DNA of 64,000 nt, taken from contig CAZJAO010000002.1 of NCBI GenBank assembly GCA_964544395.1, forward strand, positions 5,071-69,070. The letters run 5' to 3'. The position numbers and the translations under genes are program-made. This DNA is from Candidatus Woesearchaeota archaeon. GTDB lineage: Archaea; Nanobdellota; Nanobdellia; Pacearchaeales; GW2011-AR1. The notes beneath the pieces were generated by a model, which saw only the letters and a program-made list of their open reading frames with translations, was not told the DNA's origin and ran no database searches. Below are positions 13,864 through 34,332 of the stretch, piece by piece (position 1 is the first letter of the stretch; every line of letters starts with the position of its first letter).

Positions 13864-13872
13864 TTATCAAAA

Positions 13873-14772: not shown

Positions 14773-14789
14773 AGAATTTTTCTCTTTTA

Positions 14790-15734: not shown

Positions 15735-15778
15735 ATTTCTTCTTCTGAATTCTATTTTTTAAAGATTGTGTATCCCAA

Positions 15779-21502: not shown

Positions 21503-22435
21503 ATGAATAAAACAGATGTGCCTATTCTTATTCTGGCATTCAATAGACCGGATACTACTTTCAAGGTTTTCAATGCTATTAGAGAAATAAAACCCAAAAA
21601 GCTTTTTATTGCTGTTGATGGACCTCGTCCAGGAAATGAAATGGATGAGATAAATGTAAAAAAAGTAAGAGAGATTTTAAGCAATGTGGATTGGCCATGC
21701 AAGGTAAAGAAAATATTCAGGGAAAAAAATCTTGGTTCTTTAAACTCTACTGTAGGTGCTATCACTTGGTTCTTTGAAAATGTTGAATACGGTGCGATAG
21801 TAGAAGACGACTGCCTGCCAAGTTCGGATTTTTTTAAATTTTGCGCAGAGCTTCTTGAAAAATACAAAGATGATGAAAGAATAATGCACATAGGCGGAAA
21901 TAACTTTCAGAGGGGCTGGACTCGTGATAAATACTCTTACTATTTCTCCTATTACCCTTACATGTGGGGTTGGGCTACTTGGGCAAGAGCTTGGAAGAAA
22001 TTTGACCGAACAATGGGAGCTTACCCCGAGTTGAAAAATAAAGGATATTTTAGAGATATCTATCCAAACAAATTAGAAGAAACATATATTAGAAGGCTTA
22101 TTGAAGGCACCTATTCAGGAAAGAATCCTACTGGATGGGATAATAACTGGATATTTACTCTTTTGACAAATAATGGGTTGTCCATAGCTCCAAATAAAAA
22201 CCTTGTAAAAAATATCGGGTTTGTTGAGAATTCTGTTCGTACAAAACCTATAGACTCTTTTTTGTCAATAGACACTCAAGAAATGGAATTTCCTTTGAAA
22301 CATCCGCCATTTATTTTCCGAGACCGTAAAACTGATGAGAGATATATACGATGGATTTATCGGACTAAACTGAGAAAATATTTCTTAATGAAAACGGGAT
22401 TATACAAACTTTTTTCTAAGAACAAAAAAAACTGA
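21503..22435 (+). CDS. GT-A-fold glycosyltransferase (GnT-I/HlpA-like family)
   Basis: PILILAFNRPD...FIAVDGPR...IVEDDC. The EDD motif lies in a GT-A Rossmann context. Confidence 0.4.
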   Translation: MNKTDVPILILAFNRPDTTFKVFNAIREIKPKKLFIAVDGPRPGNEMDEINVKKVREILSNVDWPCKVKKIFREKNLGSLNSTVGAITWFFENVEYGAIVEDDCLPSSDFFKFCAELLEKYKDDERIMHIGGNNFQRGWTRDKYSYYFSYYPYMWGWATWARAWKKFDRTMGAYPELKNKGYFRDIYPNKLEETYIRRLIEGTYSGKNPTGWDNNWIFTLLTNNGLSIAPNKNLVKNIGFVENSVRTKPIDSFLSIDTQEMEFPLKHPPFIFRDRKTDERYIRWIYRTKLRKYFLMKTGLYKLFSKNKKN

Positions 22436-23209
22436 TTGGGGTCTTATCTTGTGCCAAGCTTTGGTTGCATGATACTTTTTGTTCCATGAAAATATCTTGC
22501 TTAAAAGAATATCGAGATAAATAACAAGTTTGGATTTCTTGAATCCATTGTTAATATCCCATATTCTTCTGGTTGTTGGAAATAAAACCCTATCTTCTGA
22601 TAGAATTTCCAATCCATTTTGAAGGATTATTTGTTTGAAAATATTTAATGGAATCCCTCTCTCTCTTAATGTTAAGCCCTTTCTCTCTTTTCTCCAATCC
22701 CCCATGGAAACTATTGGTTCTCTCAAAAGAATAAAGCCCCCTTTTTTTAGGATCCTCGTTAATTCCTGAATTACAAAGCTAATATTAGGTATGTGATGAA
22801 GAACAGCAAAACAGGTGATTAAATCAATGCTTCCCTCGGGCAAATCAATTTTGCCTGAAGCATTAGGTGAAATATATTCTATCTTCTTACCCCCTATTTT
22901 TCCGACTCTTAATTTATGAGATGGCTCTAAAATTATTACTTCCTTGATTCTATCTATTATTGGGAGGAGTTCATCTCCGGAAGCTCCTCCAAAACTAAGA
23001 ACTTTGCTAAATTCTTTTATCCTTTTTATTTTATTATACCCATGAATCTTATTGAGCTCATGAAACTCATAAAAATATGGGGCTTCGGAAATCAGTCCAG
23101 AATATCCTTCTTTTTCATCGTTAAACCATGCTTCAATTTGTTTTCTATTGAAATCATCCCCGTATAGTTTCTTACCTGAAAAATATTCTTCAAAATTTTC
23201 GTCTTTCAT
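22400..23209 (-). CDS. Class I SAM-dependent methyltransferase
   Basis: Methyltransf_11/23-like. GSIDLITCFAVLHHIPN...LKKGGFILLRE. Confidence 0.55.
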   Translation of the reverse strand: MKDENFEEYFSGKKLYGDDFNRKQIEAWFNDEKEGYSGLISEAPYFYEFHELNKIHGYNKIKRIKEFSKVLSFGGASGDELLPIIDRIKEVIILEPSHKLRVGKIGGKKIEYISPNASGKIDLPEGSIDLITCFAVLHHIPNISFVIQELTRILKKGGFILLREPIVSMGDWRKERKGLTLRERGIPLNIFKQIILQNGLEILSEDRVLFPTTRRIWDINNGFKKSKLVIYLDILLSKIFSWNKKYHATKAWHKIRPQSVFFVLRKKFV

Positions 23210-24285
23210 ATCTCTTTGTTAAAAATCTCAATTAATTTTCTTTCTGAAATCTCAAATTGGAAGTTCTTCTTGAAAAATTGCCTAATTTTATTTGAATCTA
23301 TTTTCTTTTTTGCCATGATTTTTAATTTTTCTGCTAGGCTGTTCCAATCTCCCCGTTTTGCCACATAGCCCAAAAAATCTTTCGACACCATCTCTTTTAT
23401 TGCTCCGGTATTATAAGATAAGACGGGAATTCCGAACATAAAAGATTCTAAAATAACTAAAGGAAAAGATTCATTCTCATATTGTGTCGGAAAGATAAGA
23501 GAATTTGCCTCGCTCAATACTTGCTCCTTCTCTTTTCCAAACTTGGGACCAAGATAAGTGCATTCTTTTTCCAAAGCGTATTCTTTTCTTAGCGAAAACC
23601 ATTTCTCTTCGGTTTCTTTATCTGGAAAACTTCCGACAAACAAGCACTTGAACTTAATTTGACTCTTTAATAAATTGCAAATTCTTAATGTATCTAATGC
23701 GCCCTTTGTTTCATACATATTAGACAAAAATAATAAAACTAATTCTTTTTTCTTTTTCCTATTGCTTAGAACCGCTTCAAACTTTTTATCATCTAGTTCG
23801 TCTTTTATCCCGTTTGGAACAAAGTAGACATGATCTTTATCAAAAATGGTTGACACTTCATCATAAAGTAAGGGAGAGAGTATAATCATCTTGCTGTTCC
23901 CAAAAACAAATTTTGCATATCTGGAAAATTTAAGTCCTTTAGTATGTGTTTGAAAGATAACTTTCTTTCCAAATAGTTTGCATTCCAGAACATAAATGCT
24001 GTCTCTTATAAATGCGAAACCTTTAACCGGAATCTCAAAATAAATTAAGTCTGGTTTGAATGAGATTAATTCTTTGAGCAGTTTAAAAAATACTGCAAAA
24101 GCACCCATGAACTTCTTGGCATTAATAGAACCCATCTCATCCAGTTTGTCAAAATAGTTAATTTTTATTTTTTTCAATTCAAAATTTTTATTCATCTCTT
24201 TTCCGTTGAAGTATAATTCATTCATTATGGATGCCCCGTGTGTTGGGGGGGGAAATCGACCTAAAAATAAAATTTTCTTTTTCAT
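23206..24285 (-). CDS. Glycosyltransferase family 4 (GT-B, retaining)
   Basis: The C-terminal E-x7-E motif is ESFPLVILESFMFGIPVL. Confidence 0.7.
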   Translation of the reverse strand: MKKKILFLGRFPPPTHGASIMNELYFNGKEMNKNFELKKIKINYFDKLDEMGSINAKKFMGAFAVFFKLLKELISFKPDLIYFEIPVKGFAFIRDSIYVLECKLFGKKVIFQTHTKGLKFSRYAKFVFGNSKMIILSPLLYDEVSTIFDKDHVYFVPNGIKDELDDKKFEAVLSNRKKKKELVLLFLSNMYETKGALDTLRICNLLKSQIKFKCLFVGSFPDKETEEKWFSLRKEYALEKECTYLGPKFGKEKEQVLSEANSLIFPTQYENESFPLVILESFMFGIPVLSYNTGAIKEMVSKDFLGYVAKRGDWNSLAEKLKIMAKKKIDSNKIRQFFKKNFQFEISERKLIEIFNKEI

Positions 24286-25010
24286 TCTATATATCTCAGG
24301 TATATTATTGCCTTTAAGCTTCTTAGCACTTTAGTCTTTGAATGTTTGAAATCGGTAATTAATCTATAAAACCATTCTAATCCGAGGGTGCTAAATATCT
24401 TTGGGGCCCTCTTCTTTTTTTCCAATAAAAAATCTAATCCTGCTCCAACATTAAAAAATAATTTTGTCTTATCAAATAGTTTATCCGTAAGGAAATTTTG
24501 TTTTGGGCATCCCAGTCCAATCCAGACGTATTCTATTTTTTTGGATTTGATAATCTCTGCAATTTTCTTTATTTCTTCCTCAGAAAATTCCCCTTCTTTT
24601 ATGTATGGCGGATTATAGCAGAATAAATTGCTCCTCTTAAGATAAGGATATTTTTTTAATATTTTTGTCAGGTCTTCTTCTTCCAGCCCAATAAATAACT
24701 GCCTTGAATTAGGAAGAACTTTATTTTCAAAAATCTGTTTTGTAAAATCAGGTCCCGTTAGTCTTTTTATCCTCCTTAAATTTTTGAGGGAAAGAAAAAG
24801 GGATACAACGAATCCGTCTATGAAATTAATAGTGTGGTCCTTGAATGTGTCTTTAAACTTTGTATCTTTAGCAAAGAAGAATAAGTCATGGGAATTGATG
24901 AAATTGAAAATATATTTATTTGGATCTGAAACTTTTTCCTTAAGAAAAGATTTCAAATCTCTAATTTCTGTGAAAGATAATTTCTTTTCCATTATTCTAT
25001 TTTTATCCAC
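24282..25010 (-). CDS. WecB/TagA/CpsF-family glycosyltransferase (GT26)
   Basis: RLTGPDF...QLFIGLEEED...VWIGLGCPKQNFL...NVGAGLDFL matches the GT26 conserved blocks. Confidence 0.7.
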   Translation of the reverse strand: MDKNRIMEKKLSFTEIRDLKSFLKEKVSDPNKYIFNFINSHDLFFFAKDTKFKDTFKDHTINFIDGFVVSLFLSLKNLRRIKRLTGPDFTKQIFENKVLPNSRQLFIGLEEEDLTKILKKYPYLKRSNLFCYNPPYIKEGEFSEEEIKKIAEIIKSKKIEYVWIGLGCPKQNFLTDKLFDKTKLFFNVGAGLDFLLEKKKRAPKIFSTLGLEWFYRLITDFKHSKTKVLRSLKAIIYLRYIE

Positions 25011-25879
25011 CCTTCTGGAAGACGGTCCTCCTCTTTCTCTACATTTGTAAATTGCATAAATTCTTTTGGAGCAATCACTATCTTTTTAGGATTCGGATTC
25101 AAATATCCTGCCCACCAGCTCAGAGCACTGTTCGCCAAAATATTATGTTTGCATAATTTCATGACTTCCAAAACATGATACCCCGTATTGGGACAATCTG
25201 AGTCTTCAATAAAATATAACTCCGCCCCCATATCTTTAAGGTTTTCTTTGCACCACTTAATATCGTCAGAAAAGACATAAAACTTGGCATTTTTTACTCT
25301 TTTATTGATTATCTCTATAGCTTTTTTATAATAACTAAGGTCAAGCACTGTTGCATTCTTCAAAGTCAATAAATCGCCTCTTCGGACGTGAAGGCTAATT
25401 GAATTTTCTTTTGAGATTTTATTCAACAGGGGCATTATGGGGGATCTATACTCTTCTCTTAGAGTGAATTCTCTCTTAATTTGGTCTTTTACATCCATAA
25501 AAAATTTTTCCCTGCCTAGATATCCCCGAAGATAAGAATTGTCTGGAATCTTATAAAAATCATCTAAAGAGCCGTGGCTCGGAAAATAAACGACGTTTCG
25601 GTCAAATAATTTGTATTTTCTTATAATTTTATCAATTGGCCTAAACCCAGTTTTAATTACAAACTTTCTTATCTCTTTTTTAGATGCTTCCTGGGCAGTG
25701 ATATTCAATTTTCCTAATTCAAATTCCCATAATCCGCCATATTTTTCCCATGTAGGCCACGACTTTAAATAAGTAGTATCCAATTTTAACTCGGTATGAT
25801 CATGTTTTGCAAGAGCCAATGCTGCCGCATACACATACATTGAATTTCCAAGCCCTCTTCCGATTTCTGTGATTATCAT
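24992..25879 (-). CDS. Alpha-1,2-fucosyltransferase-family glycosyltransferase (GT11)
   Basis: GRGLGNSMYVYAAAL (GGLGNQMFQYA motif), SLHVRRGDLL (HxRRGDY), YVFSDDIKWCKENL and ILANSALSWWAGYL..PKKIVIAPK are all GT11 signatures. Confidence 0.8.
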   Translation of the reverse strand: MIITEIGRGLGNSMYVYAAALALAKHDHTELKLDTTYLKSWPTWEKYGGLWEFELGKLNITAQEASKKEIRKFVIKTGFRPIDKIIRKYKLFDRNVVYFPSHGSLDDFYKIPDNSYLRGYLGREKFFMDVKDQIKREFTLREEYRSPIMPLLNKISKENSISLHVRRGDLLTLKNATVLDLSYYKKAIEIINKRVKNAKFYVFSDDIKWCKENLKDMGAELYFIEDSDCPNTGYHVLEVMKLCKHNILANSALSWWAGYLNPNPKKIVIAPKEFMQFTNVEKEEDRLPEGWIKIE

Positions 25880-26967
25880 TTTAATGCGCCTTCATAAATC
25901 ATTCTTAATTTATTATTCCTGGATTCTATTGAAAATTTGCCTGTTTTTATTTCATTTAAGCAATTTTTTGACATAGTCTCTCTGAGATTACCCTCTTTTA
26001 TTAGTTTTTCTGTGTTTTCTTCCAATTTATTTATTAAATCAGAATAATCACTTATATTATTCAAATGTGAAACATCGAAATTCTCTGGTTCTTCAATAAC
26101 AAAACCTGTTTTATTATTTGTTATTATCTCTCTTCGAGACAGCCCTCCTACTGTTACAACTGGCAATCCAAAGCTCATGGCTTCTGTTAATCCAAAACCA
26201 AAAGTATCTGTATAAGAGGGATAAACAAAAATATCCGCCTTGGGATAAATTTCTTTAAACAATCTCTCTTGAGAGACAAATCCCAAAAATTCTATTTTGC
26301 TGTTTGCCGAATAATTCTTTTTAATTTCTTCCGAAACATCAGAGACAATTATTCCATAAACATTTTCGTGCTTCTTTGTCAATCTATCAATAACTTCCAA
26401 GGCATGCAATCCTCCCTTAAAGATAAATCTTCTTGAAGAAAATAGGAGGGTTATTCTTTTTGATTCTTTTCTAACAAATTTCCTAATAGGTATTCCTGGA
26501 TAAACAATCTTTATTTTATTGCTAATTTCAGGAAATTCTTTTGAAATACCGTCTGCAGACCATTGAGTCCATGCCAATATCTTTTTGCAATAATCACTTT
26601 CTAAAATCTTTAGAATAGCTTTCTTATTATTAATTCTCCCCGACGCCCAGAATTGATTCACATACTCTACATCACATACCCATGGATTTTTATTAAGGCT
26701 TAAACAATGTGCGCAATGAATAAGGTCATATCCTCTTTGCGTTTTTGTTAAATGTGCATTAGGCAATCCCGGCATTAGCTTTAAGATTTTTTTTATATAA
26801 TGTTTTATTTTCTGTTGTAATCTCAATTTCTTTCCACTTTGGATTAATTCAAAGTCCTCCGCATTTACGTACTGAACGTTATCTGGCGGATTTTGCCTAA
26901 GATATAAATAATAGGGAGAATCAGAAAATTTCCAAGGACTTTGTAGATAAACTTTTATTTTATTCAT
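25876..26967 (-). CDS. Glycosyltransferase family 4 (GT-B)
   Basis: FGFGLTEAMSFGLPVV is an E-x7-E-like motif in a GT-B C-terminal domain. Confidence 0.65.
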   Translation of the reverse strand: MNKIKVYLQSPWKFSDSPYYLYLRQNPPDNVQYVNAEDFELIQSGKKLRLQQKIKHYIKKILKLMPGLPNAHLTKTQRGYDLIHCAHCLSLNKNPWVCDVEYVNQFWASGRINNKKAILKILESDYCKKILAWTQWSADGISKEFPEISNKIKIVYPGIPIRKFVRKESKRITLLFSSRRFIFKGGLHALEVIDRLTKKHENVYGIIVSDVSEEIKKNYSANSKIEFLGFVSQERLFKEIYPKADIFVYPSYTDTFGFGLTEAMSFGLPVVTVGGLSRREIITNNKTGFVIEEPENFDVSHLNNISDYSDLINKLEENTEKLIKEGNLRETMSKNCLNEIKTGKFSIESRNNKLRMIYEGALK

Positions 26968-27003: not shown

Positions 27004-28491
27004 TTATTTTTTATTTGCTTCATTAATCTGGTCTATAATCTTTCTCAGTTCCAAATCCCTTCCTTTTTTCTCCTCTTCTGTCACTCCCCATTCGGCAGTT
27101 ATAGAATCTTCCAATGCAACCCATGCATGGGTTTTATTTGCAGGAATTTTTATTGATTCCCCCATGGACAGCACCTTCTCTTCATCACCAAGAAGAAGTT
27201 TTATTCTTCCCTTAACAATAACAAGATATTCATCTCTGGGATGAAGGCATCCGCCTCTGGCATAGCCTGTCTTTGTTTCTAAAAAGGTAAACTCTTTGTT
27301 ATTTTCTAAAAGGTTGCTTATCAAGTAAATGTATCCTCTATTGTCTTCATGTATCTTCTTCATATTCAATCCTGAATTGTAGAACTCCTTAATCTTCTCA
27401 CTGATGTAATTTATCTGTTCTGAAGTGATTGCTGAACCATTTGGAAGCCAGAGTATATTCTTGGATAAAAAGGATGAATTAGGAAAATCTGAATCATTGC
27501 CCTGATTCTTGTAAGGAGGATTAATGTGGACTGCAGGCCAGCATTCTCTCGCGGAAATTTCATTTTTGATTAAAAATTCAACAAGAGCAGTTCGATTATT
27601 TGCGATTATCTCAATCCATAAGGGAATTTCTTCAGAGTTATAAGCTGGAAATTTAACTTCCCTAATGTCCTTTAATGCATTTTGATATAATGCTCTTTGA
27701 TTTGACAGCATCTGTTTTTTACTTTCAATTTTTCTGAACTGTGCAAGAGCTAATGCAGCAGATAGGTCATTGAATTTTAAATTATAACCAACTTTTTCAT
27801 GGATGAATTCTTTATTGCTGAATCTTCCAAAATCTCTCAATCTCCTAAGAGCTTCATAATACTTGTCATCATCTGTAACAATTATGCCCCCCTGGCCGCT
27901 TGTGATTATTTTGTTGGATTGTAATGAAAAGATTCCCATTTTGCCGATTGTTCCTAAATATTTGCCAGATTGGTCTTTAGAGCCCAAAGCACCCGCTGCA
28001 TCTTCAATTACTGTAAGATTATGTTTTGAAGCCAAATTCATGAGCTCATTCATATCTGCAGATCTTCCAAGAATATGGACGGGAATTATTGCAATTGTTT
28101 TTTCATTTATTTTTTCTTCAATTTTACTAATATCAATTGTTGCTCTTTCTTTTTCAACATCTACTAAAACTGGTTTTCCACCAGCCCACTCTACAGAAGT
28201 AGCAGTGGCAATCATTGTCAAATCCGGAACAATGACTTCAAAATCTTCTTTATTTCTTATGATAGCATCAGCTTTAATTGCAAGAAATAATGCCGCAGTC
28301 GCATTTGTTGTTAGAAGGACATGCTTCACCCCAAGATATTTTTTCAATTCCTCTTCAAGCTGTTTTGTTTTTGGTCCTTCATTCACGTAACCTGCATTTA
28401 GTACTTCAGTAACTTCTTTGATTTCTTCGTCTCCAAACTTCGGTTCATTCCAATTAATTCGAACCATATTAAAAGTCATACATAGTATCAT
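27004..28491 (-). CDS. Fusion of a DegT/DnrJ/EryC1/StrS-family PLP-dependent sugar aminotransferase (N-terminal, about 370 aa) with a C-terminal cupin domain.
   Basis: The aminotransferase part has IPVHILG, DAAGALG and FSLQSNKIITSGQGG (Schiff-base Lys region). The C-terminal 120 aa has cupin His/Glu motifs (GGCLHPRDEYLVIVKG...HAWVALE). Confidence 0.65.
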   Translation of the reverse strand: MILCMTFNMVRINWNEPKFGDEEIKEVTEVLNAGYVNEGPKTKQLEEELKKYLGVKHVLLTTNATAALFLAIKADAIIRNKEDFEVIVPDLTMIATATSVEWAGGKPVLVDVEKERATIDISKIEEKINEKTIAIIPVHILGRSADMNELMNLASKHNLTVIEDAAGALGSKDQSGKYLGTIGKMGIFSLQSNKIITSGQGGIIVTDDDKYYEALRRLRDFGRFSNKEFIHEKVGYNLKFNDLSAALALAQFRKIESKKQMLSNQRALYQNALKDIREVKFPAYNSEEIPLWIEIIANNRTALVEFLIKNEISARECWPAVHINPPYKNQGNDSDFPNSSFLSKNILWLPNGSAITSEQINYISEKIKEFYNSGLNMKKIHEDNRGYIYLISNLLENNKEFTFLETKTGYARGGCLHPRDEYLVIVKGRIKLLLGDEEKVLSMGESIKIPANKTHAWVALEDSITAEWGVTEEEKKGRDLELRKIIDQINEANKK

Positions 28492-28855
28492 TTACTTCAG
28501 GAGAAACAAAAGGTTCTTCAGTGCATCCTATCATGGTTGTTCCTTTTTTTACAAATACTTTATGTGCTACCTGTGCTGGAATTAAAATACTACAATTCGC
28601 TTTTAAGGAATAATTATTCTCTTCTTTTGTTTCTATATCGACAAGTTGGATATCTAATTCTCCGTCAATAACGTAAAGCAATTCCTGATATTTATGAAAA
28701 TGTCCTGCTAATTGGGCGTCTTGATGAATCTTGTAAACCTTGGTTTGTTTTGCTGTAAAACCTCCAAAATCACCGTTAAATGCAGTAGAAAGGGTTCTTC
28801 TTGCATCTTCATGGTCAATTCCTCTCTCTTGAAAAATGACTTTGTCTATTGTCAT
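28469..28855 (-). CDS. FdtA/WxcM-like cupin, a candidate NDP-4-keto-6-deoxyhexose 3,4-ketoisomerase.
   Basis: 128 aa with HFHKYQELLYVIDGELDIQLVD...AHKVFV. Size and motifs resemble FdtA/QdtA. Confidence 0.55.
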   Translation of the reverse strand: MTIDKVIFQERGIDHEDARRTLSTAFNGDFGGFTAKQTKVYKIHQDAQLAGHFHKYQELLYVIDGELDIQLVDIETKEENNYSLKANCSILIPAQVAHKVFVKKGTTMIGCTEEPFVSPEVNDTMYDF

Positions 28856-29940
28856 TTTACCAATGCTCTCCCTAATTCTCTTCCTTTTTCAATATAGAAA
28901 TCATCGGGATGTTCTTCATGCATTGGGACAATTCCTTTTTCTTTCATTTTATCTTTTAAATCTGATGCAATCATCATCTTTACTAATTCTTTAAACTTAA
29001 TTTTAGGTTCCCAGCTAAGAATATTCTTTGCCTTTGAAGAATCGCCAAGTAACGCTGGAACTTCTGCCGGTCTTTTGTAATTATCACTTACTTTAACGTA
29101 ATCTTCCCAATTTAATCCAAGCAAGTCAAATGCTTCCTGAACAAATTCTCTTACACTATGTGTCTCTTTTGTTGCTATAACAAAATCATCAGGAACATCA
29201 TGTTGCAAGATCCTCCAGATAGCTTCAACGTATTCTTTTGAAAATCCCCAATCTCTCTTAGCTTCCAAATTTCCCAAAGACAAATCTTTTTCTTCCCCTA
29301 CAATTATTTTTGCAATGCCTAAAGTAACTTTTCTCGTCACAAAATTCAAACCTCTCCTTGGAGACTCGTGGTTGAATAAAATTCCGTTGGATGCGAAAAT
29401 CCCATATGCCTTTCTGTACATTCTTGTTAAATGATACGCAGCCAATTTAGAAATTCCATAAGGGCTTTGGGGAATCATAGGGGTCCATTCATTTTGAGGT
29501 GGTGGAGAAATTCCAAACATTTCACTTGAAGAGGCTTGATAATATTTGCACTTCAAATTCATATCTCTTATTGCCTCTAGAATTCTTAATGGACCCAAAG
29601 CATTGTAATTAAGCGTAGATTCTGGGTTCTCAAAGCTTATTCCTACGTGGCTTTGTGCAGCCATATTGTATATTTCATCAGGATTAATCTTTTCTAAAAC
29701 ATTTCTTATGCTTGAAGAATCTGATAAGTCTCCATAAAGTAAAAAGAATGGAGATTCATCTGTTTTTCCGAATTGTGTATCATATTTGTCTAAGTGGTCA
29801 ATTCTCTTAGTATTTGGAAAACTTGCTCTTCTTATAACTCCTCTCACATAATATCCCTTTTCAAGAAGTAATTCTGCAAGATAGCTTCCATCCTGTCCGC
29901 TTATACCAAAAATTAAAGCAACTTTTCTTCCATTTATCAT
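28852..29940 (-). CDS. gmd: GDP-mannose 4,6-dehydratase
   Basis: ALIFGISGQDGSYLAELLLEKGYYVRGVIRRASFPNTKRIDHL...YQASSSEMFG...ILFNHESPRRG...LGNLEAKRDWG. Collinear with Gmd. Confidence 0.9.
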   Translation of the reverse strand: MINGRKVALIFGISGQDGSYLAELLLEKGYYVRGVIRRASFPNTKRIDHLDKYDTQFGKTDESPFFLLYGDLSDSSSIRNVLEKINPDEIYNMAAQSHVGISFENPESTLNYNALGPLRILEAIRDMNLKCKYYQASSSEMFGISPPPQNEWTPMIPQSPYGISKLAAYHLTRMYRKAYGIFASNGILFNHESPRRGLNFVTRKVTLGIAKIIVGEEKDLSLGNLEAKRDWGFSKEYVEAIWRILQHDVPDDFVIATKETHSVREFVQEAFDLLGLNWEDYVKVSDNYKRPAEVPALLGDSSKAKNILSWEPKIKFKELVKMMIASDLKDKMKEKGIVPMHEEHPDDFYIEKGRELGRALVK

Positions 29941-30006: not shown

Positions 30007-30534
30007 CTATTTTAAGACTTCCAGTTCGTATTCCATTTCTGAAGAAGGCAATATCCATGCAAAAAATCTGCAGTAAAATTCCTGATTAAGATTTATTATT
30101 GGATTAAAAAGCCAGTTTAATCTGCCTGAACGACCTATTCCGAAATTAATTTTTATTTTTCGGGCTTTGAACATATCCTTGTCTGTTCCAACTTCATGAG
30201 AATACGTCCCCTTCTGAAAGTAAGTGAATGTTCTTGGAGAAAAGAATCTTACATGTGTCGGGTCGTTGTATTGCCCCCAGGCAGAATAGAAGGGAGTTTT
30301 TACATGGATAATTGCGCCATTCTTGCATACCCTATGCAAATCATGCATCAAAGGGATAAAATTCTTGATATGTTCCAGAACATGATAAGCCATAACTCCA
30401 TCTATAGAATCGTCCTTAAATGGCAGGGGTGTTTTTTCCAAATCACAAACCTTGTCAGGATTAACTAGGGGAGAAGAGTCTACATTTACATATCCTTCTC
30501 GTTTGTCACGCCCGCAACCAATATTTAATTTCAT
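30007..30534 (-). CDS. Class I SAM-dependent methyltransferase
   Basis: MKLNIGCGRDKREGYVNVDS and VMAYHVLEHI are Methyltransf_11/23 motifs. Confidence 0.55.
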   Translation of the reverse strand: MKLNIGCGRDKREGYVNVDSSPLVNPDKVCDLEKTPLPFKDDSIDGVMAYHVLEHIKNFIPLMHDLHRVCKNGAIIHVKTPFYSAWGQYNDPTHVRFFSPRTFTYFQKGTYSHEVGTDKDMFKARKIKINFGIGRSGRLNWLFNPIINLNQEFYCRFFAWILPSSEMEYELEVLK

Positions 30535-33287
30535 GCTGTTACTGTTAAATTATCAAATGCTCCATAAGTGCCAGATGTCTGGGTAAATTCTGCTTTAGAT
30601 AGAATATTTGAAGGATAGTTTGTTTTCCAGATTTTTATTGGACCATCAAATCCATTGTAATAAATAAAATCTCCCGTGAATCCTTGAGCCTTTAAACCTT
30701 GCAATAAAGAGTCATCTTGTGCATGAGCTAAAGTTATTGTAGGATACTCATTGAACGGATCATTCATTAAATAAAGTTGCGCAAACAAGCTGTTGAAAAC
30801 TTTTGGAGAAAGATATATTGCAGCGCCAAAGTTGTCAATCTGGATGCCTCCTGCAGCAGTCTGCCCGAGACTAGAAAGAACATATGCTGCTCCTGCATTT
30901 CCGCTCCCGAAATCAACTAATTTGTTATTGAAATAAAGATATCTTAAAGGAACACTAATTTGCTGACCATTATAATAAACAACTTCCTGTGGTTGTGAAA
31001 AAGAAATTGCACCCGTTGAATTGGTCTGATTTGAGTTTAAGACAAGTGCGATTACATAAGCCTGTCCCTGGGGGATTAATATCTGCCCTTGTGAAGTATT
31101 GTATATCATATCTTGGTCTATGGGCACAACGTATTGATATACTCTCGTTGTAGTCCCATTGATTGTCTGAGTCTGGCTTGGACTGGATGGAAATACTTGA
31201 ACTGTCGAAGCCCGGTCACTCAAAGTAGCATCGCTCCCAATAAGAGAATAAGCAGAATATTTTCCTAAATCAGTAGGGTCTATCAATAGATAAGAAACAT
31301 TGTTTGATTTCATAAAGCTAAGAGCGAGATTTGGATTGGGTTCTGTTAGAACATATCTACCAATCATATAATCTCTGAATGTTCCTTCAAAATGTCCGCC
31401 ATCAGAGAGAGTCGGTCTTTGACCTAAATATTCAATAGCATACCCATAATCCCACCAATGAACAAATACCGACCCAAGAGGGGTGCTGTTTCTGACCCAA
31501 GCCATTGCATCGTCCCATTGAGATCCGTAACTTCCTATGCCCATGTATTTGGCCTGATATGAAGAAGAACTGTACAAAGTGTAGAAACTTATGGCTGTTG
31601 CTATTATTGCAGCAATTAATAATACCGCCAAAACCATCTTCAATAGATCATCTTTGCTTTTCTTGAAATAACTTGCAAGATTAAATATCAAATAACCAAC
31701 AAAGATGCACATGTATGGACTTACAATTGACATTATGTAAGCAGCAGTATTCGCCGCGATAATCATGACTAATATCGTTGAAAATAAAACTAATAGCTCT
31801 GGCGAAATTTCAATATGGTCTTTGAAATAGAGATAAATGCAATAGCAGAAGAAGATAATCATGCTCCCAAATAAAAATAATTTACTGAGGAAACTTGACC
31901 CGTTTAAAATTGCACTGCTTGCAGAAATTCTGCTTAATAATATTCCCGAGATAAGTAAAATCCAAGAGAGTACAAACCAGACTCTTCTTTTTTTCTCTTT
32001 AATTCCCATTGATAAATTAATACCCAAGGTTATCAAACCGGCAAAAAATAACCAGAAGAAAATTTTATCTGTTTGAGATATCCAATCAGTAGTATACGTT
32101 TGCTGGTTTTCTGCAACAGTGATACTTAGTCTATCTGCACCAAGAGGATGGAAAATTTGTGTAGTAACATTAGAAATAAATGAAAATAGACTTCCCTGTA
32201 ACGTTATTATTATTAGACCCAATAATCCTGCGATTATAATTCCCCAGATTACATGATTCCTCTTCAACTTTTTTAAGGGAGTCTTGTCTGCAAATTTTAT
32301 AATTAAAAAATCTACTATAATAAATAATAGGGTGAAAGATAACAGGAAGCTGGTTGGATTTATGAGGACCCTGTTTAATGCAGAATTTAGTGGAAAACCA
32401 AATACATATGTGCCCAATAAACTAAACAAGACAAAAGCGATGTAGAAAATTAAAAATTTAGGCAAGTCTTTTGCTTCTGTCTCCAGATTCTTAGCTTTCA
32501 AAACCCACACTATGAAAAAGCTTAAGGGAACAATCATAGGAAGAAACTCTGAGATTCCTCCCCAGCTGACAATGTTCAGTGCAGTAAGAGCTCCAATGGC
32601 AATTCCTAGCAAAAGACTGATTAATAATACCTTTTTTGGTTTTTTATGTTCTTCTTTTTTCTTGCTTAACCACTTTAAGGCGCAGGTGTAAGACAGTAGT
32701 ACTGCAAAGAAAATCATAGTTCCAAGAGCATCATGGTCGGAGAATCCCGCCACACTTCGATATAAATAAGTAGGTATTACTGTTAAAAATAACGCCCCGA
32801 TTATAGCCGCCAGCTTAGACTTTGTTAGAATATAAATGAGAAAGTAAAAGATAACTAGCCCTATAGCAAAGCCGATTACAGGATAAATTACATCAACGAA
32901 ATTCAATGTGATACTGCCATTAAATGCATGAACAAATTTGTATAAATCCACTAAAACATAAGGGAGAATCTCTGAAGAAAAAGGAATGTTTCCCGCGCCA
33001 GCTCTAATGGTATCAATTGCAGGAAGGTGACCAGTTTGCAGAATTATTGATGCCTCTCTTAACCAATAAAAGCAATCCAGCTCTAGCTGAGGCACATATT
33101 GCCCGGTAGTATGATCAATAAGTGATGGAAGATTTTGCAGCCTCATAAGAACCGCAACTATGACAATAATCGCTAATAGCACCAAAGAGAGTATGGTCAT
33201 TAACTTTTTTTGTTGGAAAAATTTTGAAACCTTATGAAAACTCTCTTTTGTCTTGTTAAGATTGAGTTTAATTTCTTCTTCTGGCAT
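30531..33287 (-). CDS. aglB: Oligosaccharyltransferase AglB (STT3 family)
   Basis: A roughly 13-TM N-terminal domain precedes a C-terminal soluble domain carrying the diagnostic WWDYGY motif (VHWWDYGYAIEY). 918 aa. Confidence 0.85.
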   Translation of the reverse strand: MPEEEIKLNLNKTKESFHKVSKFFQQKKLMTILSLVLLAIIVIVAVLMRLQNLPSLIDHTTGQYVPQLELDCFYWLREASIILQTGHLPAIDTIRAGAGNIPFSSEILPYVLVDLYKFVHAFNGSITLNFVDVIYPVIGFAIGLVIFYFLIYILTKSKLAAIIGALFLTVIPTYLYRSVAGFSDHDALGTMIFFAVLLSYTCALKWLSKKKEEHKKPKKVLLISLLLGIAIGALTALNIVSWGGISEFLPMIVPLSFFIVWVLKAKNLETEAKDLPKFLIFYIAFVLFSLLGTYVFGFPLNSALNRVLINPTSFLLSFTLLFIIVDFLIIKFADKTPLKKLKRNHVIWGIIIAGLLGLIIITLQGSLFSFISNVTTQIFHPLGADRLSITVAENQQTYTTDWISQTDKIFFWLFFAGLITLGINLSMGIKEKKRRVWFVLSWILLISGILLSRISASSAILNGSSFLSKLFLFGSMIIFFCYCIYLYFKDHIEISPELLVLFSTILVMIIAANTAAYIMSIVSPYMCIFVGYLIFNLASYFKKSKDDLLKMVLAVLLIAAIIATAISFYTLYSSSSYQAKYMGIGSYGSQWDDAMAWVRNSTPLGSVFVHWWDYGYAIEYLGQRPTLSDGGHFEGTFRDYMIGRYVLTEPNPNLALSFMKSNNVSYLLIDPTDLGKYSAYSLIGSDATLSDRASTVQVFPSSPSQTQTINGTTTRVYQYVVPIDQDMIYNTSQGQILIPQGQAYVIALVLNSNQTNSTGAISFSQPQEVVYYNGQQISVPLRYLYFNNKLVDFGSGNAGAAYVLSSLGQTAAGGIQIDNFGAAIYLSPKVFNSLFAQLYLMNDPFNEYPTITLAHAQDDSLLQGLKAQGFTGDFIYYNGFDGPIKIWKTNYPSNILSKAEFTQTSGTYGAFDNLTVTA

Positions 33288-33327: not shown

Positions 33328-34332
33328 TCAAAGATTATTAGTAATAATTAGAGCCAATATGATTATCACTATTTGAAATCCGTTTATTAAATTGACAACA
33401 TCTTTTTCATATACTTTGTGGCTTAGCTTTACTTTCTTTAATATTATTATCGCTAAATGTTCCAGCCCGTAAACTTTATCATAGGCTAAATCAAGGCTTC
33501 CATCTTCATTTGGTTTGCCAAAGCTTTGTTTTTTCAATCTTCCTCTTGATTTTAATACCATTTCAATTATGTAGGGAATGAAGAATAAAACTGCAACTAA
33601 TTCCAAGCCGCCGATAATTGCTACTGCTGCGAACATCAAACCAATAGCATAAGTCATGGTATTGCCTGCAAAAACTCTTGCGGGATATCTGTTAAATATG
33701 TAGAATGCAATTAGAGCAGCCACCATGATTAAAGCAATGAGACTTAGCCAGCTTTCATTATGCATATATGCAACAAATGCAAGCGCAGATAAAATTAAGA
33801 TTCCTTGTCTTGCTTCCAGTCCATTATATCCTGCTAAAAAATTATATGTCGTGGTTGCACCAACAACTCCGATTGGAATTGCTATCAAAGGATATAACAA
33901 TCCAATGTTAATTCCAAATATTGAAGAATTTCCTGCATTGATTACCATTAACGGTACGGCCGAGAATAAAATAAGAATTAGCCTCGAACGAATTGACAAG
34001 CCTCCTCTTTTCCAGCCAAACAAATCATCAATCAATCCAACTCCGGTTACTAAGAATAAAGAGCTTACTATTGCAAAAATCAGTATTAAAGTTCCATCGT
34101 CTGGTGACTTGAAATAAAATGTCCTGATTGCAATATACAAGAAAATACCGACGAGAGTTCCAAGAATTACAATAATTCCGCCTGAACCTGCCACATTTCT
34201 TTCTCTTTTAGGCTTGTTCATATCTTCCCACACCAAATCTATTTGTTTTGCTTTCTTAATCCACATAGGCATTATTAAAAGAGTCACAAAGAAACTGATA
34301 AGAATTGTCCCGAATAATAATGGTTCAACCAT
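33328..34332 (-). CDS. UDP-GlcNAc:dolichyl-phosphate GlcNAc-1-phosphate transferase family (MraY/WecA/AglH-like GPT)
   Basis: It is polytopic, with IDDLFGW (DDxxG), NFLAGYNGLE (NxxDGxDGL-like) and VFAGNTMTYAIG (VFMGDTGS-like). Confidence 0.7.
   Translation of the reverse strand: MVEPLLFGTILISFFVTLLIMPMWIKKAKQIDLVWEDMNKPKRERNVAGSGGIIVILGTLVGIFLYIAIRTFYFKSPDDGTLILIFAIVSSLFLVTGVGLIDDLFGWKRGGLSIRSRLILILFSAVPLMVINAGNSSIFGINIGLLYPLIAIPIGVVGATTTYNFLAGYNGLEARQGILILSALAFVAYMHNESWLSLIALIMVAALIAFYIFNRYPARVFAGNTMTYAIGLMFAAVAIIGGLELVAVLFFIPYIIEMVLKSRGRLKKQSFGKPNEDGSLDLAYDKVYGLEHLAIIILKKVKLSHKVYEKDVVNLINGFQIVIIILALIITNNL

What the first reader, a model, noticed from the sequence alone, without database searches (positions are those of the whole stretch)
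27004..29940. Gmd, an FdtA-like 3,4-ketoisomerase and an aminotransferase(-cupin): a predicted GDP-linked 3-amino-3,6-dideoxyhexose (mycosamine/perosamine-like) pathway.
Three consecutive, translationally coupled genes encode GDP-mannose 4,6-dehydratase, a small FdtA/WxcM-type cupin and a DegT-family aminotransferase that itself carries an extra C-terminal cupin. By analogy with dTDP-Fuc3N (FdtA/FdtB) and GDP-mycosamine or GDP-perosamine biosynthesis, this module should make a GDP-amino-6-deoxyhexose. The aminotransferase-cupin fusion and the presence of two cupins are unusual.
Basis: inference. Interest (0 to 1): 0.6.

Follow-up and report, generated by a model that had tools for sequence, protein, structure and literature searches.

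The report
GDP-amino-deoxysugar genes with two cupins
A tiny archaeon's protein-glycosylation locus carries a three-gene line that should turn GDP-mannose into an unusual amino sugar, and its two small cupin proteins are candidates for a sugar-rearranging enzyme never yet identified for GDP-linked sugars.

Summary
Three tightly coupled minus-strand genes encode a GDP-mannose 4,6-dehydratase (Gmd), a 128-aa cupin, and a DegT aminotransferase with a C-terminal cupin.

- **Small cupin.** Its model matches dTDP-sugar 3,4-ketoisomerases (QdtA, FdtD, FdtA, WlaRA/B) over its full length and keeps their His-x-His motif. It fails the Pfam FdtA threshold.
- **C-terminal cupin.** It is a distant homologue of the small one (hhalign probability 98.6%). 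An invariant Cys sits where FdtA has its catalytic His49.
- **Which cupin is core.** The C-terminal cupin is the conserved partner. Homologues are fused to the aminotransferase or lie beside it in 35 of 63 metagenomic loci, often in the order Gmd-cupin-aminotransferase. The small cupin is a patchy add-on, missing from a cluster whose aminotransferase domain is 91% identical.
- **Aminotransferase.** Its closest characterised relative is GDP-perosamine synthase. C3 versus C4 amination cannot be told from sequence.
- **Context.** This is a DPANN archaeal N-glycosylation locus (AglB, GT4, GT11).

Most likely the cupins rearrange GDP-4-keto-6-deoxymannose before amination. 3,4-ketoisomerisation is favoured, and C3/C5 epimerisation is the main rival. 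No GDP-linked 3,4-ketoisomerase is described in the literature I could search.

The parts
28852..29940 (-). GDP-mannose 4,6-dehydratase (Gmd), 362 aa
   Evidence: TIGR01472 scores 433.5 bits against a cutoff of 415. Pfam PF16363 gives E 9e-121. It is 93-95% identical to the Gmd of the syntenic loci L021 and L007.
28469..28855 (-). Small stand-alone cupin, 128 aa, with an FdtA/QdtA-like fold. H52-x-H54, Y56, E58, H98 and the N-terminal H15-E-D17-x-R19-R20 motif are conserved. It is an accessory, patchily present gene.
   Evidence: - Pfam assigns Cupin_2 only.
- The AF2 model has pLDDT 96.5.
- The top Foldseek PDB hits are QdtA, FdtD, FdtA, WlaRA/B and HCAN_0198, with TM-score 0.75-0.83.
- The family has 76 clusters, named DPANN wherever a source names them. 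Conservation comes from alignment A4.
- The gene is absent from L021, L007, L004 and L009.
27376..28491 (-). DegT-family sugar-nucleotide aminotransferase domain (residues about 1-372 of the 495-aa fusion). The Schiff-base Lys is K194. The start codon is ambiguous (28491, 28479 or 28467).
   Evidence: - PF01041 gives E 4e-92.
- The best PDB matches are 7b0m, 7b0d and then Caulobacter perosamine synthetase 3bn1/3dr4 at E about 4e-46, with QdtB at 7e-38.
- K194 aligns with the Lys in NKIITTG of 7b0m.
27004..27375 (-). C-terminal cupin domain of the fusion (residues 374-495; the span includes residue 373 and the stop codon). Family signature: D383-x-R385-G, E400, A-R-G-G-C415-x-H417-xxx-E421, H455, E467-W-G, N490.
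   Evidence: - Pfam Cupin_2 covers residues 416-468.
- The family has 189 representative clusters. Conservation comes from alignment A1.
- The AF2 model has pLDDT 96.4.
- hhalign against the small-cupin family gives probability 98.6%.
- A profile of the N-terminal half retrieves no cupin from the PDB other than FdtA-type isomerases, with the Cys aligned to FdtA His49.
- The domain is a separate downstream gene in L005.
30007..30534 (-). Small class-I SAM methyltransferase (175 aa) just upstream of Gmd. It recurs in the module.
   Evidence: Pfam Methyltransf_11 gives E 1e-7. Homologues at 70-72% identity hold the same position in L004, L009 and L013. Related small methyltransferases follow the aminotransferase in L073 and L078. 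It is absent in L007.
30531..33287 (-). Archaeal oligosaccharyltransferase AglB/STT3 (918 aa)
   Evidence: Pfam STT3 and STT3-PglB_core match. TIGR04154 gives E 7e-28. The WWDYGY motif is visible in the translation.
33328..34332 (-). Glycos_transf_4 family polyprenyl-phosphate sugar-1-phosphate transferase (AglH-like initiating enzyme)
   Evidence: PF00953 gives E 2e-26. It is syntenic in L004, L007 and L044.
25876..26967 (-). GT4 glycosyltransferase immediately downstream of the aminotransferase-cupin gene. It is the most constant neighbour of the module and a candidate transferase for the amino sugar.
   Evidence: PF00534 gives E 2.5e-23. It is adjacent in L003, L004, L007, L009, L021 and many of L022-L059.
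24992..25879 (-). GT11 (fucosyltransferase-family) glycosyltransferase
   Evidence: PF01531 gives E 5e-33. It is conserved after GT4 in related loci.
24282..25010 (-). WecG/TagA/CpsF-family glycosyltransferase
   Evidence: PF03808 gives E 7e-28. TIGR00696 scores 72 bits against a cutoff of 69.
23206..24285 (-). Second GT4 glycosyltransferase
   Evidence: PF00534 gives E 1e-24.
22400..23209 (-). SAM methyltransferase (269 aa) closing the cluster
   Evidence: Pfam Methyltransf_23 and Methyltransf_11 match. It is syntenic in L004, L007, L009 and L021.

Best explanation
The three genes are the sugar-nucleotide branch of an archaeal (DPANN) N-glycosylation locus.

1. Gmd converts GDP-mannose to GDP-4-keto-6-deoxy-D-mannose. 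This assignment rests on homology above a curated equivalog threshold.
2. One or both FdtA-like cupins then bind this GDP-keto-sugar. Using the (His/Cys)-x-His pair at the barrel centre, they move the proton alpha to the carbonyl. The most likely reaction is 3,4-ketoisomerisation, giving a GDP-3-keto-6-deoxyhexose. This step is inferred.
3. The PLP aminotransferase, fused to the conserved cupin so that the labile intermediate can be handed over directly, aminates the keto carbon. The product is a GDP-amino-dideoxyhexose, either a mycosamine-type 3-amino sugar or its C4 epimer. This step is also inferred.
4. The adjacent GT4 and GT11 transferases add the sugar to a lipid-linked glycan, which AglB transfers to protein. 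The small methyltransferases may methylate it.

The C-terminal Cys-x-His cupin is the ancestral partner of the aminotransferase. The stand-alone His-x-His cupin is an optional second isomerase or epimerase. It would change the stereochemistry of the product and so diversify the glycan, much as C. jejuni carries both WlaRA and WlaRB.
For: - **Gmd** scores above the equivalog cutoff.
- **Small cupin fold.** The model's best PDB matches are all NDP-sugar 3,4-ketoisomerases over 120-132 columns (E 4e-8 to 7e-7, TM-score 0.75-0.83), followed by RmlC and ChmJ. H52 and H54 align with the HAH of the H. canadensis ketoisomerase 7n67.
- **The two cupin families are homologous.** hhalign gives probability 98.6% and E 5.5e-16. 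C415 aligns with H52, H417 with H54, E421 with E58 and H455 with H98.
- **C-terminal cupin against the PDB.** A profile of its N-terminal half finds, among 177,635 PDB sequences, no cupin other than WlaRB, HCAN_0198 and FdtA. The matches are marginal (E 0.03-0.2). DxRG aligns with D-S-R-G, the Cys with FdtA His49 (the residue changed in the H49N entry 2pae) and the His with His51.
- **Gene neighbourhood.** Of 63 metagenomic loci with a C-terminal-cupin homologue, 11 are fused to the aminotransferase, 6 have the aminotransferase immediately upstream and 18 have it immediately downstream. Gmd-cupin-aminotransferase order is typical of the distant group. P0137 is a divergent second example of the fusion (39% cupin identity).
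- **Fusion and fission** both occur, in L005 versus L004.
- **Some cupin accompanies every Gmd-aminotransferase variant examined in detail.** These are the C-terminal type, the small type (L003), a WbuC-like type (L010, L011) and a CapF-like type (L011).
- **No RmlC-type catalytic Tyr** is conserved in either family (RmlC mechanism from PMC9095892).
Against: - Neither cupin passes the Pfam FdtA gathering score.
- The C-terminal cupin's own Foldseek hits are generic small cupins plus the CapF C3-epimerase domain, and FdtA is not in the top 50.
- The full-length family profile scores T. kodakarensis phosphomannose isomerase (E 2e-5) above FdtA (E 2.5e-3).
- The first catalytic His is Cys in the conserved cupin.
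- The aminotransferase's nearest characterised relatives are C4 aminotransferases (Per, and the LegC, PseC and DesI models).
- An orthologous aminotransferase (63% identity) in L010 is followed by a formyltransferase, with no C-terminal-type cupin detected. That arrangement looks like plain N-formylperosamine synthesis.
- Distant small-cupin relatives sit beside NUDIX and HAD genes, with no Gmd detected nearby.
- No activity has been measured.
Confidence: 0.45

Rival explanations
1. The cupins are epimerases rather than ketoisomerases. They would invert C3, or C3 and C5, of GDP-4-keto-6-deoxymannose, as the CapF cupin domain, ChmJ, RmlC or the GDP-specific DdahB/MlghB do. The Per-like aminotransferase would then aminate C4. 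The product would be an epimer of GDP-perosamine, for example a 4-amino-4,6-dideoxy-altro, -talo or L-galacto sugar.
For: - Among sugar-nucleotide enzymes, the C-terminal cupin model matches CapF best (2zkl and 4yrd: TM-score 0.57-0.66, 22-25% identity).
- The CapF-type Pfam model PF14667 hits 33 of 65 family members, against 12 for FdtA.
- The CapF cupin is assigned C3 epimerisation (PMC3699295). Cupin epimerases acting on GDP-keto-sugars exist (PMC7949155).
- The aminotransferase is closest to C4 aminotransferases.
- GT11 or GT10 fucosyltransferase-family genes sit next to the module. This would fit an L-fucose-like product.
- RmlC and ChmJ are also among the small cupin's fold hits.
Against: - The RmlC-type Tyr acid is not conserved in either family.
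- Both proteins have the size of isomerases (120-130 aa), not of RmlC (about 180 aa).
- The small cupin's top 21 fold hits are all isomerases.
- The N-terminal-half profile retrieves only FdtA-type isomerases.
- The most constant neighbouring transferase is a GT4, a family I know to be retaining. That fits a GDP-alpha-D sugar better than an L sugar.
Confidence: 0.25
2. The pathway is ordinary GDP-perosamine synthesis by Gmd plus a Per-type aminotransferase. The cupins would not touch the keto-sugar. They would be metal-dependent sugar-phosphate isomerases (minimal phosphomannose isomerases feeding GDP-mannose supply) or non-catalytic binding or oligomerisation domains.
For: - Per is the best characterised relative of the aminotransferase.
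- L010 has Gmd, the aminotransferase and a formyltransferase, with no C-terminal-type cupin detected.
- Profile searches place the archaeal cupin PMIs 7zvy and 7zvm above FdtA for both families.
- Pfam MannoseP_isomer gives weak hits: E 1.4e-3 for the window domain, and 15 of 65 family members.
- The canonical cupin metal positions are kept: H/H/E/H in the small cupin and C/H/E/H in the C-terminal one.
- Distant small-cupin relatives lie beside HAD hydrolases and NUDIX genes.
- Fusions of a PMI cupin to another GDP-mannose enzyme are known (ManC-PMI; my own knowledge).
Against: - A PMI fused to the aminotransferase, or inserted between Gmd and the aminotransferase, in many separate lineages would be odd.
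- The DxRG hairpin and the R-G-x-(H/C)-x-H motif align with FdtA-type enzymes over the N-terminal half. The PMI matches cover only the generic barrel core.
- No ManB or ManC gene was identified in the parts of the loci examined.
- All PMI scores are below the curated thresholds.
Confidence: 0.2
3. Only the conserved C-terminal cupin works in the pathway. The stand-alone small cupin would be a functionally unrelated passenger gene that happened to insert between Gmd and the aminotransferase.
For: The small cupin is absent from clusters with 78-91% identical aminotransferase domains and otherwise the same gene order (L021, L007). Relatives at 43-53% identity lie outside Gmd clusters.
Against: - The same insertion point between Gmd and the aminotransferase recurs in diverged loci with small-cupin identities of 56-66%. 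These are L003, L013/L014 and L018-L020.
- In L003 the small cupin accompanies an unfused aminotransferase, with no C-terminal-type cupin detected on the 3.6-kb contig.
- It is translationally coupled on both sides.
- All family-invariant residues are intact.
- L015 also has a DegT gene and a Gmm-like NUDIX next to it.
Confidence: 0.1

Closest known systems
dTDP-Fuc3N / dTDP-Qui3N pathways: RmlB, then an FdtA/QdtA/WlaRA/WlaRB 3,4-ketoisomerase, then an FdtB/QdtB/WlaRG aminotransferase
   Same: - The logic is the same: a 4,6-dehydratase, a small cupin and a DegT aminotransferase encoded side by side.
- The small cupin shares the fold and the His-x-His motif.
- The DxRG and R-G-x-H-x-H motifs align.
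- C. jejuni has two isomerases, WlaRA and WlaRB (PDB titles). That they share one aminotransferase is my own recollection.
   Different: - The nucleotide carrier is predicted to be GDP (Gmd), not dTDP.
- Both cupins fall below the Pfam FdtA threshold.
- The conserved cupin has Cys at the catalytic His49 position and is fused to the C-terminus of the aminotransferase.
- The aminotransferase is nearer to Per than to QdtB.
- There is no N-acetyltransferase.
GDP-perosamine pathway (Gmd plus Per/RfbE; Caulobacter Per, PDB 3bn1/3dr4)
   Same: It combines Gmd with a DegT aminotransferase. Per is the closest functionally characterised structure to that aminotransferase.
   Different: Perosamine synthesis needs no cupin. 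Here a cupin is fused to or adjacent to the aminotransferase in most related loci. N-acetyl and N-formyl transferases are absent from the window.
GDP-mycosamine biosynthesis in polyene producers (AmphDIII/NysDIII Gmd plus AmphDII/NysDII aminotransferase)
   Same: The proposed chemistry is the same: GDP-4-keto-6-deoxymannose to a 3-keto sugar to a 3-amino sugar.
   Different: In polyene clusters no isomerase gene has been found, and the step is thought to be spontaneous (PMC8944477). Here candidate isomerase genes are present. The organisms and the glycoconjugates are unrelated.
CapF/WbjC C-terminal cupin domain (Pfam PF14667) in UDP-L-FucNAc synthesis
   Same: A small cupin is fused at the C-terminus of another enzyme of the same sugar-nucleotide pathway and acts on a 4-keto-6-deoxy intermediate. 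It gives the highest sequence identity among sugar-nucleotide structures (22-25%).
   Different: CapF's partner domain is an SDR reductase and the carrier is UDP. The reaction assigned to it is C3 epimerisation (PMC3699295). The window's domains score below the PF14667 cutoff.
RmlC-type and GDP-specific DdahB/MlghB C3/C5 epimerases
   Same: They have the cupin fold with a domain-swapped N-terminal hairpin, and the catalytic base sits at the same strand position. DdahB and MlghB show that cupins can act on GDP-4-keto sugars (PMC7949155).
   Different: Those enzymes are about 180 aa and use a His/Tyr pair (PMC9095892). Neither family here conserves that Tyr.

Membership tests
GDP-mannose 4,6-dehydratase (TIGR01472 equivalog) | Score above the curated equivalog cutoff over the full length | tested here: met
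   The score is 433.5 bits against a cutoff of 415, covering residues 6-329.
DegT/DnrJ/EryC1/StrS sugar aminotransferases (PF01041) | Pfam gathering score, and the Schiff-base Lys rather than the His of ColD-type dehydratases | tested here: met
   The score is 309.7 bits against a cutoff of 19.8. K194 in SNKIITSGQGG aligns with the Lys of 7b0m.
GDP-perosamine synthase (Per/RfbE) | Amination at C4 of GDP-4-keto-6-deoxy-D-mannose | not testable with these tools
   Per is the best characterised PDB relative (161 bits), with the C3 enzyme QdtB at 134 bits. Regiochemistry cannot be read from these scores.
FdtA/QdtA 3,4-ketoisomerases (PF05523) | Pfam gathering score (23 bits) | tested here: not met
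   The small cupin scores 14.2 bits at E 0.04. The window's C-terminal cupin has no hit at E 1 or better, and 12 of 65 family members hit weakly.
FdtA/QdtA 3,4-ketoisomerases (PF05523) | Fold: a small RmlC-like cupin of about 135 aa with an N-terminal hairpin | tested here: met
   The small cupin meets this: QdtA, FdtD, FdtA and WlaRA/B are the top Foldseek hits at TM-score 0.75-0.83. For the C-terminal cupin the test is inconclusive, because Foldseek returns generic cupins.
FdtA/QdtA 3,4-ketoisomerases (PF05523) | Catalytic His-x-His (FdtA His49 and His51) | tested here: inconclusive
   The small cupin has both: H52 is at least 90% conserved and H54 is invariant. The C-terminal cupin has an invariant Cys at the His49 position and keeps the second His.
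FdtA/QdtA 3,4-ketoisomerases (PF05523) | dTDP-linked substrate made by RmlB | tested here: not met
   The upstream dehydratase is Gmd (GDP-mannose specific by equivalog model) in the window. In related loci the neighbouring dehydratase is a Gmd homologue by tblastn.
RmlC-type 3,5-epimerases (PF00908) | A His base plus a conserved Tyr acid, about 180 aa | tested here: not met
   Neither alignment has a conserved Tyr in the C-terminal half. The proteins are 128 and about 122 aa. The mechanism is taken from PMC9095892.
CapF C-terminal cupin (PF14667) | Pfam gathering score (28.7 bits) | tested here: not met
   The small cupin scores 17.1 bits. The window's C-terminal cupin has no hit. 33 of 65 family members hit, with a best E of 2e-6. 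L011's 147-aa cupin passes at 37.3 bits.
Cupin-type phosphomannose isomerase (PF01050, TkPMI 7zvy) | Curated score, and activity on mannose-6-P | tested here: not met
   PF01050 scores 19.2 bits against a cutoff of 23.6. The profile hits to 7zvy and 7zvm (E 2e-5 to 1e-3) cover the barrel core only. Activity is not testable here.
Archaeal AglB oligosaccharyltransferase (context) | STT3 domains and the WWDYG motif | tested here: met
   PF02516 and PF21436 both score above their cutoffs. WWDYGY appears in the translation. TIGR04154 scores 97 bits, below its subfamily cutoff of 450.

The most novel reading that the evidence does not exclude
The C-terminal Cys-x-His cupin family, and possibly the stand-alone His-x-His family, would be the first enzymatic GDP-4-keto-6-deoxy-D-mannose 3,4-ketoisomerases. 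They would define a widespread, uncharacterised Gmd-cupin-aminotransferase(-methyltransferase) route to GDP-3-amino-3,6-dideoxyhexoses. These are mycosamine-type sugars, used here in DPANN archaeal N-glycans and also present on some contigs catalogued as viral. A thiolate would replace the canonical histidine base.
Probability: 0.35. Interest if true: 0.7.

Novelty: new variant of a known kind. Interest (0 to 1): 0.55.

Why it matters
The dTDP-linked route of dehydratase, 3,4-ketoisomerase and aminotransferase is well characterised. For GDP-linked sugars no 3,4-ketoisomerase has been identified, and the corresponding step in GDP-mycosamine biosynthesis (amphotericin, nystatin) is assumed to be spontaneous (PMC8944477).

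This locus and its relatives supply concrete, clonable candidates: two related cupin families, one of them physically fused to the aminotransferase. If they are active, three things follow.
- They would close that gap.
- They would give a tool for enzymatic synthesis of GDP-amino-deoxysugars for glyco-engineering of polyenes.
- They would say something about the otherwise unknown N-glycan chemistry of DPANN archaea. The presence or absence of the second cupin among near-identical clusters hints at rapid glycan diversification.

If the cupins turn out to be epimerases, the product would still be a new GDP-amino sugar.

Tried and rejected

- The search for related loci with the family alignments A1 and A3 failed for lack of a conserved stretch. 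The single genome-contig scan with the whole fusion gave only 5 loci.
- Single-sequence PDB searches with either cupin gave nothing significant.
- BLASTP between the two cupins found nothing. Only profile-profile comparison showed the homology.
- Literature searches for cupin with GDP-perosamine, for the PDB code 7B0M, and for WlaRA/WlaRB returned nothing useful. The function of the two top PDB aminotransferase hits (7b0m, 7b0d) therefore remains unknown to me.

**Readings considered and rejected**
- ColD-type 3-dehydratase: the catalytic Lys is present.
- Fusion as an assembly or frameshift artefact: many independent clusters and loci carry it.
- RmlC-type 3,5-epimerase membership: no conserved Tyr and the wrong size.
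- An N-acyltransferase nearby: none was found among the ORFs scanned between 8 and 37.7 kb.
- A bona fide GDP-fucose synthase in the window that would explain GT11: the only Fcl-like SDR scores 89 bits against a cutoff of 500.

Full report
**1. What is in the window**

Coordinates 27004-29940 hold three consecutive minus-strand ORFs.

- The first (28852-29940, 362 aa) is a GDP-mannose 4,6-dehydratase. It scores 433.5 bits on the NCBIfam equivalog TIGR01472 (cutoff 415) and E 9e-121 on Pfam GDP_Man_Dehyd.
- The second (28469-28855, 128 aa) matches only the generic Cupin_2 model above threshold.
- The third (27004-28491, 495 aa) has a DegT/DnrJ/EryC1 aminotransferase domain at residues 20-367 (E 4e-92) and a Cupin_2 domain at residues 416-468.

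The Gmd stop and the cupin start overlap as ATGA. The cupin's TAA is followed after one base by an ATG that opens MVRINWNEP, the position where homologues start. Two further in-frame ATGs lie upstream, at 28479 and 28491.

**2. Genomic setting**

The genes sit in an archaeal N-glycosylation locus.

- Upstream on the same strand are a 175-aa SAM methyltransferase, a 918-aa AglB/STT3 oligosaccharyltransferase with a WWDYGY motif, and a Glycos_transf_4 initiating transferase. Beyond those are SpoIIM-like, prefoldin, EMC3-like and SecY genes.
- Downstream are GT4, GT11, a WecG/TagA-family transferase, a second GT4 and a 269-aa methyltransferase.
- G+C is about 34%.
- Where a source names them, the closest homologues come from Nanoarchaeota, Pacearchaeota and Woesearchaeota assemblies. 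The organism is therefore a DPANN archaeon.
- None of the ORFs scanned between 8 and 37.7 kb matches an N-acetyl- or N-formyl-transferase family.

**3. The aminotransferase**

- Its Schiff-base lysine is present: K194 in SNKIITSGQGG aligns with the Lys of 7b0m. It is therefore an aminotransferase, not a ColD-type dehydratase.
- The best PDB matches are two uncharacterised archaeal-type entries (7b0m, 7b0d). Next comes Caulobacter GDP-perosamine synthase (3bn1/3dr4, E about 4e-46).
- The C3 aminotransferase QdtB scores about 27 bits lower than Per.
- The best NCBIfam models are all C4 aminotransferases (LegC, PseC, DesI, WecE, ArnB), and all score far below their cutoffs.
- This favours a Per-like enzyme but cannot fix regiochemistry. 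From my own knowledge, the mycosamine and perosamine synthases of polyene clusters are themselves close homologues.

**4. The small cupin**

- Sequence methods are uninformative: Pfam FdtA gives E 0.04, WbuC 5e-5 (below cutoff), and PDB phmmer nothing significant.
- A profile search enlarged the family to 76 clusters, named DPANN wherever a source names them.
- An AlphaFold model built on 56 of them is confident (pLDDT 96.5).
- Its Foldseek matches in the PDB are striking. The top 21 are all NDP-sugar 3,4-ketoisomerases (QdtA, the FdtD isomerase domain, FdtA), and WlaRA/B and HCAN_0198 follow further down the list. They align over 120-132 columns with TM-score 0.75-0.83. ChmJ and RmlC epimerases come next.
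- H52 and H54 align with the HAH of HCAN_0198.
- H54, Y56, H15, D17, R19 and R20 are invariant across the family. H52, E58 and H98 are at least 90% conserved.

**5. The C-terminal cupin**

- Searching the isolated domain against 1.84 billion representatives found 189 clusters. Most are stand-alone proteins of 115-130 aa.
- The family signature is D-x-R-G, E, A-R-G-G-C-x-H-xxx-E, H, E-W-G and N. In the fusion's numbering these are D383, R385, E400, C415, H417, E421, H455, E467 and N490.
- This is the classical cupin motif 1 with the first His replaced by an invariant Cys.
- The model is confident (pLDDT 96.4). Foldseek, however, returns generic small cupins (KdgF, TM1459, T. kodakarensis PMI). 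The CapF cupin domain is the best sugar-nucleotide match (TM-score 0.57-0.66, 22-25% identity), and FdtA is not in the top 50.
- The full-length family profile hits generic cupins best. It then scores TkPMI at 2e-5, FdtA over its full length at 2.5e-3 and CapF at 0.018.
- Pfam's CapF-type model PF14667 hits 33 of 65 members, and FdtA hits 12 of 65.

Two further tests clarified the relationship.

- Profile-profile comparison shows that the two cupin families of this window are homologous. hhalign gives probability 98.6% and E 5.5e-16, aligning hEDxRG with HEDxRR, C415 with H52, H417 with H54, E421 with E58 and H455 with H98.
- A profile of only the N-terminal half of the C-terminal-cupin family retrieves no cupin from the whole PDB other than WlaRB, HCAN_0198 and FdtA. 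The four other listed matches are non-cupin proteins at E 0.68 or worse. The isomerase matches are marginal (E 0.03-0.2) but consistent. DxRG aligns with FdtA D-S-R-G, the Cys with the residue mutated in the H49N entry 2pae, and the His with His51.

Both cupins are therefore FdtA-like relatives. One has the canonical His-x-His and the other a Cys-x-His variant. Neither conserves the Tyr acid of RmlC-type epimerases (mechanism from PMC9095892).

**6. Comparative genomics: which cupin is core**

The fusion itself is recurrent. About 30 of the 120 best-scoring protein clusters carry DegT plus Cupin_2 in one chain.

- **Fused, without the small cupin.** The syntenic loci L004, L007/L008 and L009 have AglB, Gmd, the aminotransferase-cupin fusion, GT4 and GT11 in order, with a WecG-family gene added in L007/L008 and L009. 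L021 shows the part of this order from Gmd onward on a shorter contig.
- **Unfused.** In L005/L006 the aminotransferase is unfused, and the cupin is the next, overlapping gene, followed by a GT10.
- **Metagenome scan.** A scan with the C-terminal-cupin alignment gave 63 loci. In 11 the cupin is fused to the aminotransferase. In 6 it is the next gene. In 18, all at lower identity (32-46%), the order is cupin then aminotransferase, often with Gmd immediately upstream. Twelve contigs are too short to tell.
- **Distant Gmd-cupin-aminotransferase modules.** L073 and L078 were read in detail. Each adds a small methyltransferase after the aminotransferase. L078's aminotransferase is again closest to Per, at 253 bits against 227 for QdtB.
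- **A divergent second fusion.** P0137 (39% cupin identity) also joins a DegT domain to this cupin.
- **The small cupin is patchy.**
  - It lies between Gmd and the aminotransferase in the window, L003, L013/L014 and L018-L020.
  - It is missing from L021, where Gmd is 93%, the aminotransferase domain 91% and GT11 93% identical to the window.
  - It is also missing from L007, where the aminotransferase is 78% identical.
- **Small cupin without the C-terminal type.** In L003 the small cupin accompanies an unfused aminotransferase, with no C-terminal-type cupin detected on the 3.6-kb contig.
- **Other cupin types.**
  - L010 has Gmd, the aminotransferase, a formyltransferase and a WbuC-like cupin.
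  - L011 has CapF-type and WbuC-like cupins.
- **NUDIX neighbours.** A NUDIX gene neighbours C-terminal-cupin homologues in at least 14 loci. For the two scanned (L018, L044), the best NCBIfam hit is GDP-mannose mannosyl hydrolase, below its cutoff.

**7. Mechanism**

*Supported by threshold-passing homology.* Gmd makes GDP-4-keto-6-deoxy-D-mannose, and a PLP aminotransferase and an AglB-centred glycosylation machinery are encoded alongside.

*Inferred.* The cupins act on the keto-sugar before transamination. The grounds are their homology to enzymes that all abstract a proton alpha to the 4-keto group, their gene position between or next to the dehydratase and the aminotransferase, and the repeated fusion.

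| Reading | Confidence | Main grounds |
|---|---|---|
| 3,4-ketoisomerisation | 0.45 | Fold ranking, size, the (H/C)-x-H motif, no RmlC Tyr, and FdtA-only hits for the N-terminal half |
| C3 or C3/C5 epimerisation | 0.25 | CapF similarity, the C4-type relatives of the aminotransferase, and the GT10/GT11 neighbours |
| Cupins not acting on the keto-sugar (PMI-type supply enzymes, or non-catalytic) | 0.2 | Profile hits to archaeal cupin PMIs, Per as the closest aminotransferase relative, and the L010 arrangement |

- The Cys for His49 substitution is compatible with base catalysis by a thiolate. That is my inference and is untested.
- With two related cupins and one aminotransferase, the window resembles C. 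jejuni. There the PDB titles name WlaRA and WlaRB as ketoisomerases of different stereochemical outcome. That they feed one aminotransferase is my own recollection.
- The presence or absence polymorphism of the small cupin among near-identical clusters suggests a switch in glycan stereochemistry.

**8. Novelty**

- A 2022 review states that no 3,4-ketoisomerase acting on GDP-4-keto-6-deoxymannose has been identified. It adds that the step in GDP-mycosamine synthesis is believed to be spontaneous (PMC8944477).
- Later papers that mention GDP-mycosamine or GDP-3-keto-6-deoxymannose are all about polyenes, and their titles and abstracts report no such enzyme.
- Cupin epimerases for GDP-keto-heptoses are known (PMC7949155).
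- This module is therefore a new variant of a known kind. It is a GDP-linked counterpart of the dTDP 3-amino-sugar logic, with a Cys-variant cupin fused to the aminotransferase, in DPANN archaea and other uncultured lineages.
- Function is unproven.

**9. Limits**

- The regiochemistry of the aminotransferase and the reaction of either cupin cannot be decided in silico.
- Several E-values linking the cupins to FdtA are marginal. They gain weight only from their consistency with the fold match and the gene context.

Noticed in passing
window 18653-21370 (-): A single 905-aa ORF joins three parts. Residues 1-310 are an SDR NDP-sugar 4,6-dehydratase. Residues 353-426 are a central stretch with weak RmlC and CapF-cupin similarity. 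Residues 503-900 are a zinc-finger C-methyltransferase (Methyltransf_13/23/14). It looks like a one-polypeptide route to a C-methyl branched deoxysugar.
   Followed up: partly
window 10710-18640: A second sugar-nucleotide gene set lies here. It contains:
- a distant Fcl-like SDR (89 bits against a cutoff of 500);
- a Wzx-type flippase;
- a PseF/KdsB-like cytidylyltransferase;
- another SDR;
- a 2-hydroxyacid dehydrogenase;
- a 451-aa ORF with no family;
- a Methyltransf_24 protein;
- a GFO/IDH/MocA oxidoreductase.
   Followed up: partly
L018 1907-2458; L027, L036, L040, L048/L049; L042-L046, L052, L055/L056; L013 4066-4593: A NUDIX gene sits beside the C-terminal-cupin homologue in at least 14 loci, either co-directional after the fusion or convergent with a stand-alone cupin. 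For the two scanned (L018, L044), the best NCBIfam hit is GDP-mannose mannosyl hydrolase, below its cutoff. The window itself has none in the cluster.
   Followed up: partly
L004 5812-7008; L005 5668-7020; L013 4686-6017: The Gmd proteins of related loci carry 40-90-aa charged C-terminal tails, giving lengths of 398-450 aa. The window's 362-aa Gmd lacks this tail. Its function is unknown.
   Followed up: no
L073, L078, L076/L086, L064/L087; proteins P0167, P0190, P0246: Gmd-cupin-aminotransferase modules at 32-46% cupin identity occur partly on contigs catalogued as viral in IMG/VR. L073 and L078 add a methyltransferase. Some cupin genes are called as fusions with HNH endonucleases. This hints at carriage by phages or giant viruses.
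   Followed up: partly
L010 5947-9331: A relative (aminotransferase 63% identical) has Gmd, an unfused aminotransferase and a Formyl_trans_N protein, with a convergent WbuC-like 140-aa cupin. This is a probable N-formyl-amino-sugar variant of the module.
   Followed up: partly
L044 5995-10022: A stand-alone C-terminal-type cupin sits in the AglH-adjacent slot. It lies next to a colitose/fucose-like set: Gmd, a 390-aa RfbH/ColD-like protein, a Gmm-like NUDIX and an Fcl-like SDR (359 bits). The cupin family is therefore not strictly tied to an aminotransferase.
   Followed up: partly
L001 6491-9635; L015 5436-6996; L016 6001-7530: More distant small-cupin relatives (43-53% identity) lie next to NUDIX genes, with no Gmd detected or called nearby. 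In L001 and L015 they also lie next to HAD-hydrolase genes. The family may have a housekeeping role in sugar-phosphate or nucleotide-sugar metabolism.
   Followed up: no
window 21503-22435 (+): A 310-aa ORF lies on the opposite strand at the end of the glycosylation cluster. It has no Pfam or NCBIfam match. A similar unannotated 313-aa gene occupies the same place in L021.
   Followed up: no
window 27004-28491 (-), start region 28467-28491: There are three possible start codons for the aminotransferase-cupin gene. The database protein P0001 (491 aa) uses the second. Homologue alignments favour the third (MVRINWNEP), which lies 1 nt after the small-cupin stop.
   Followed up: yes
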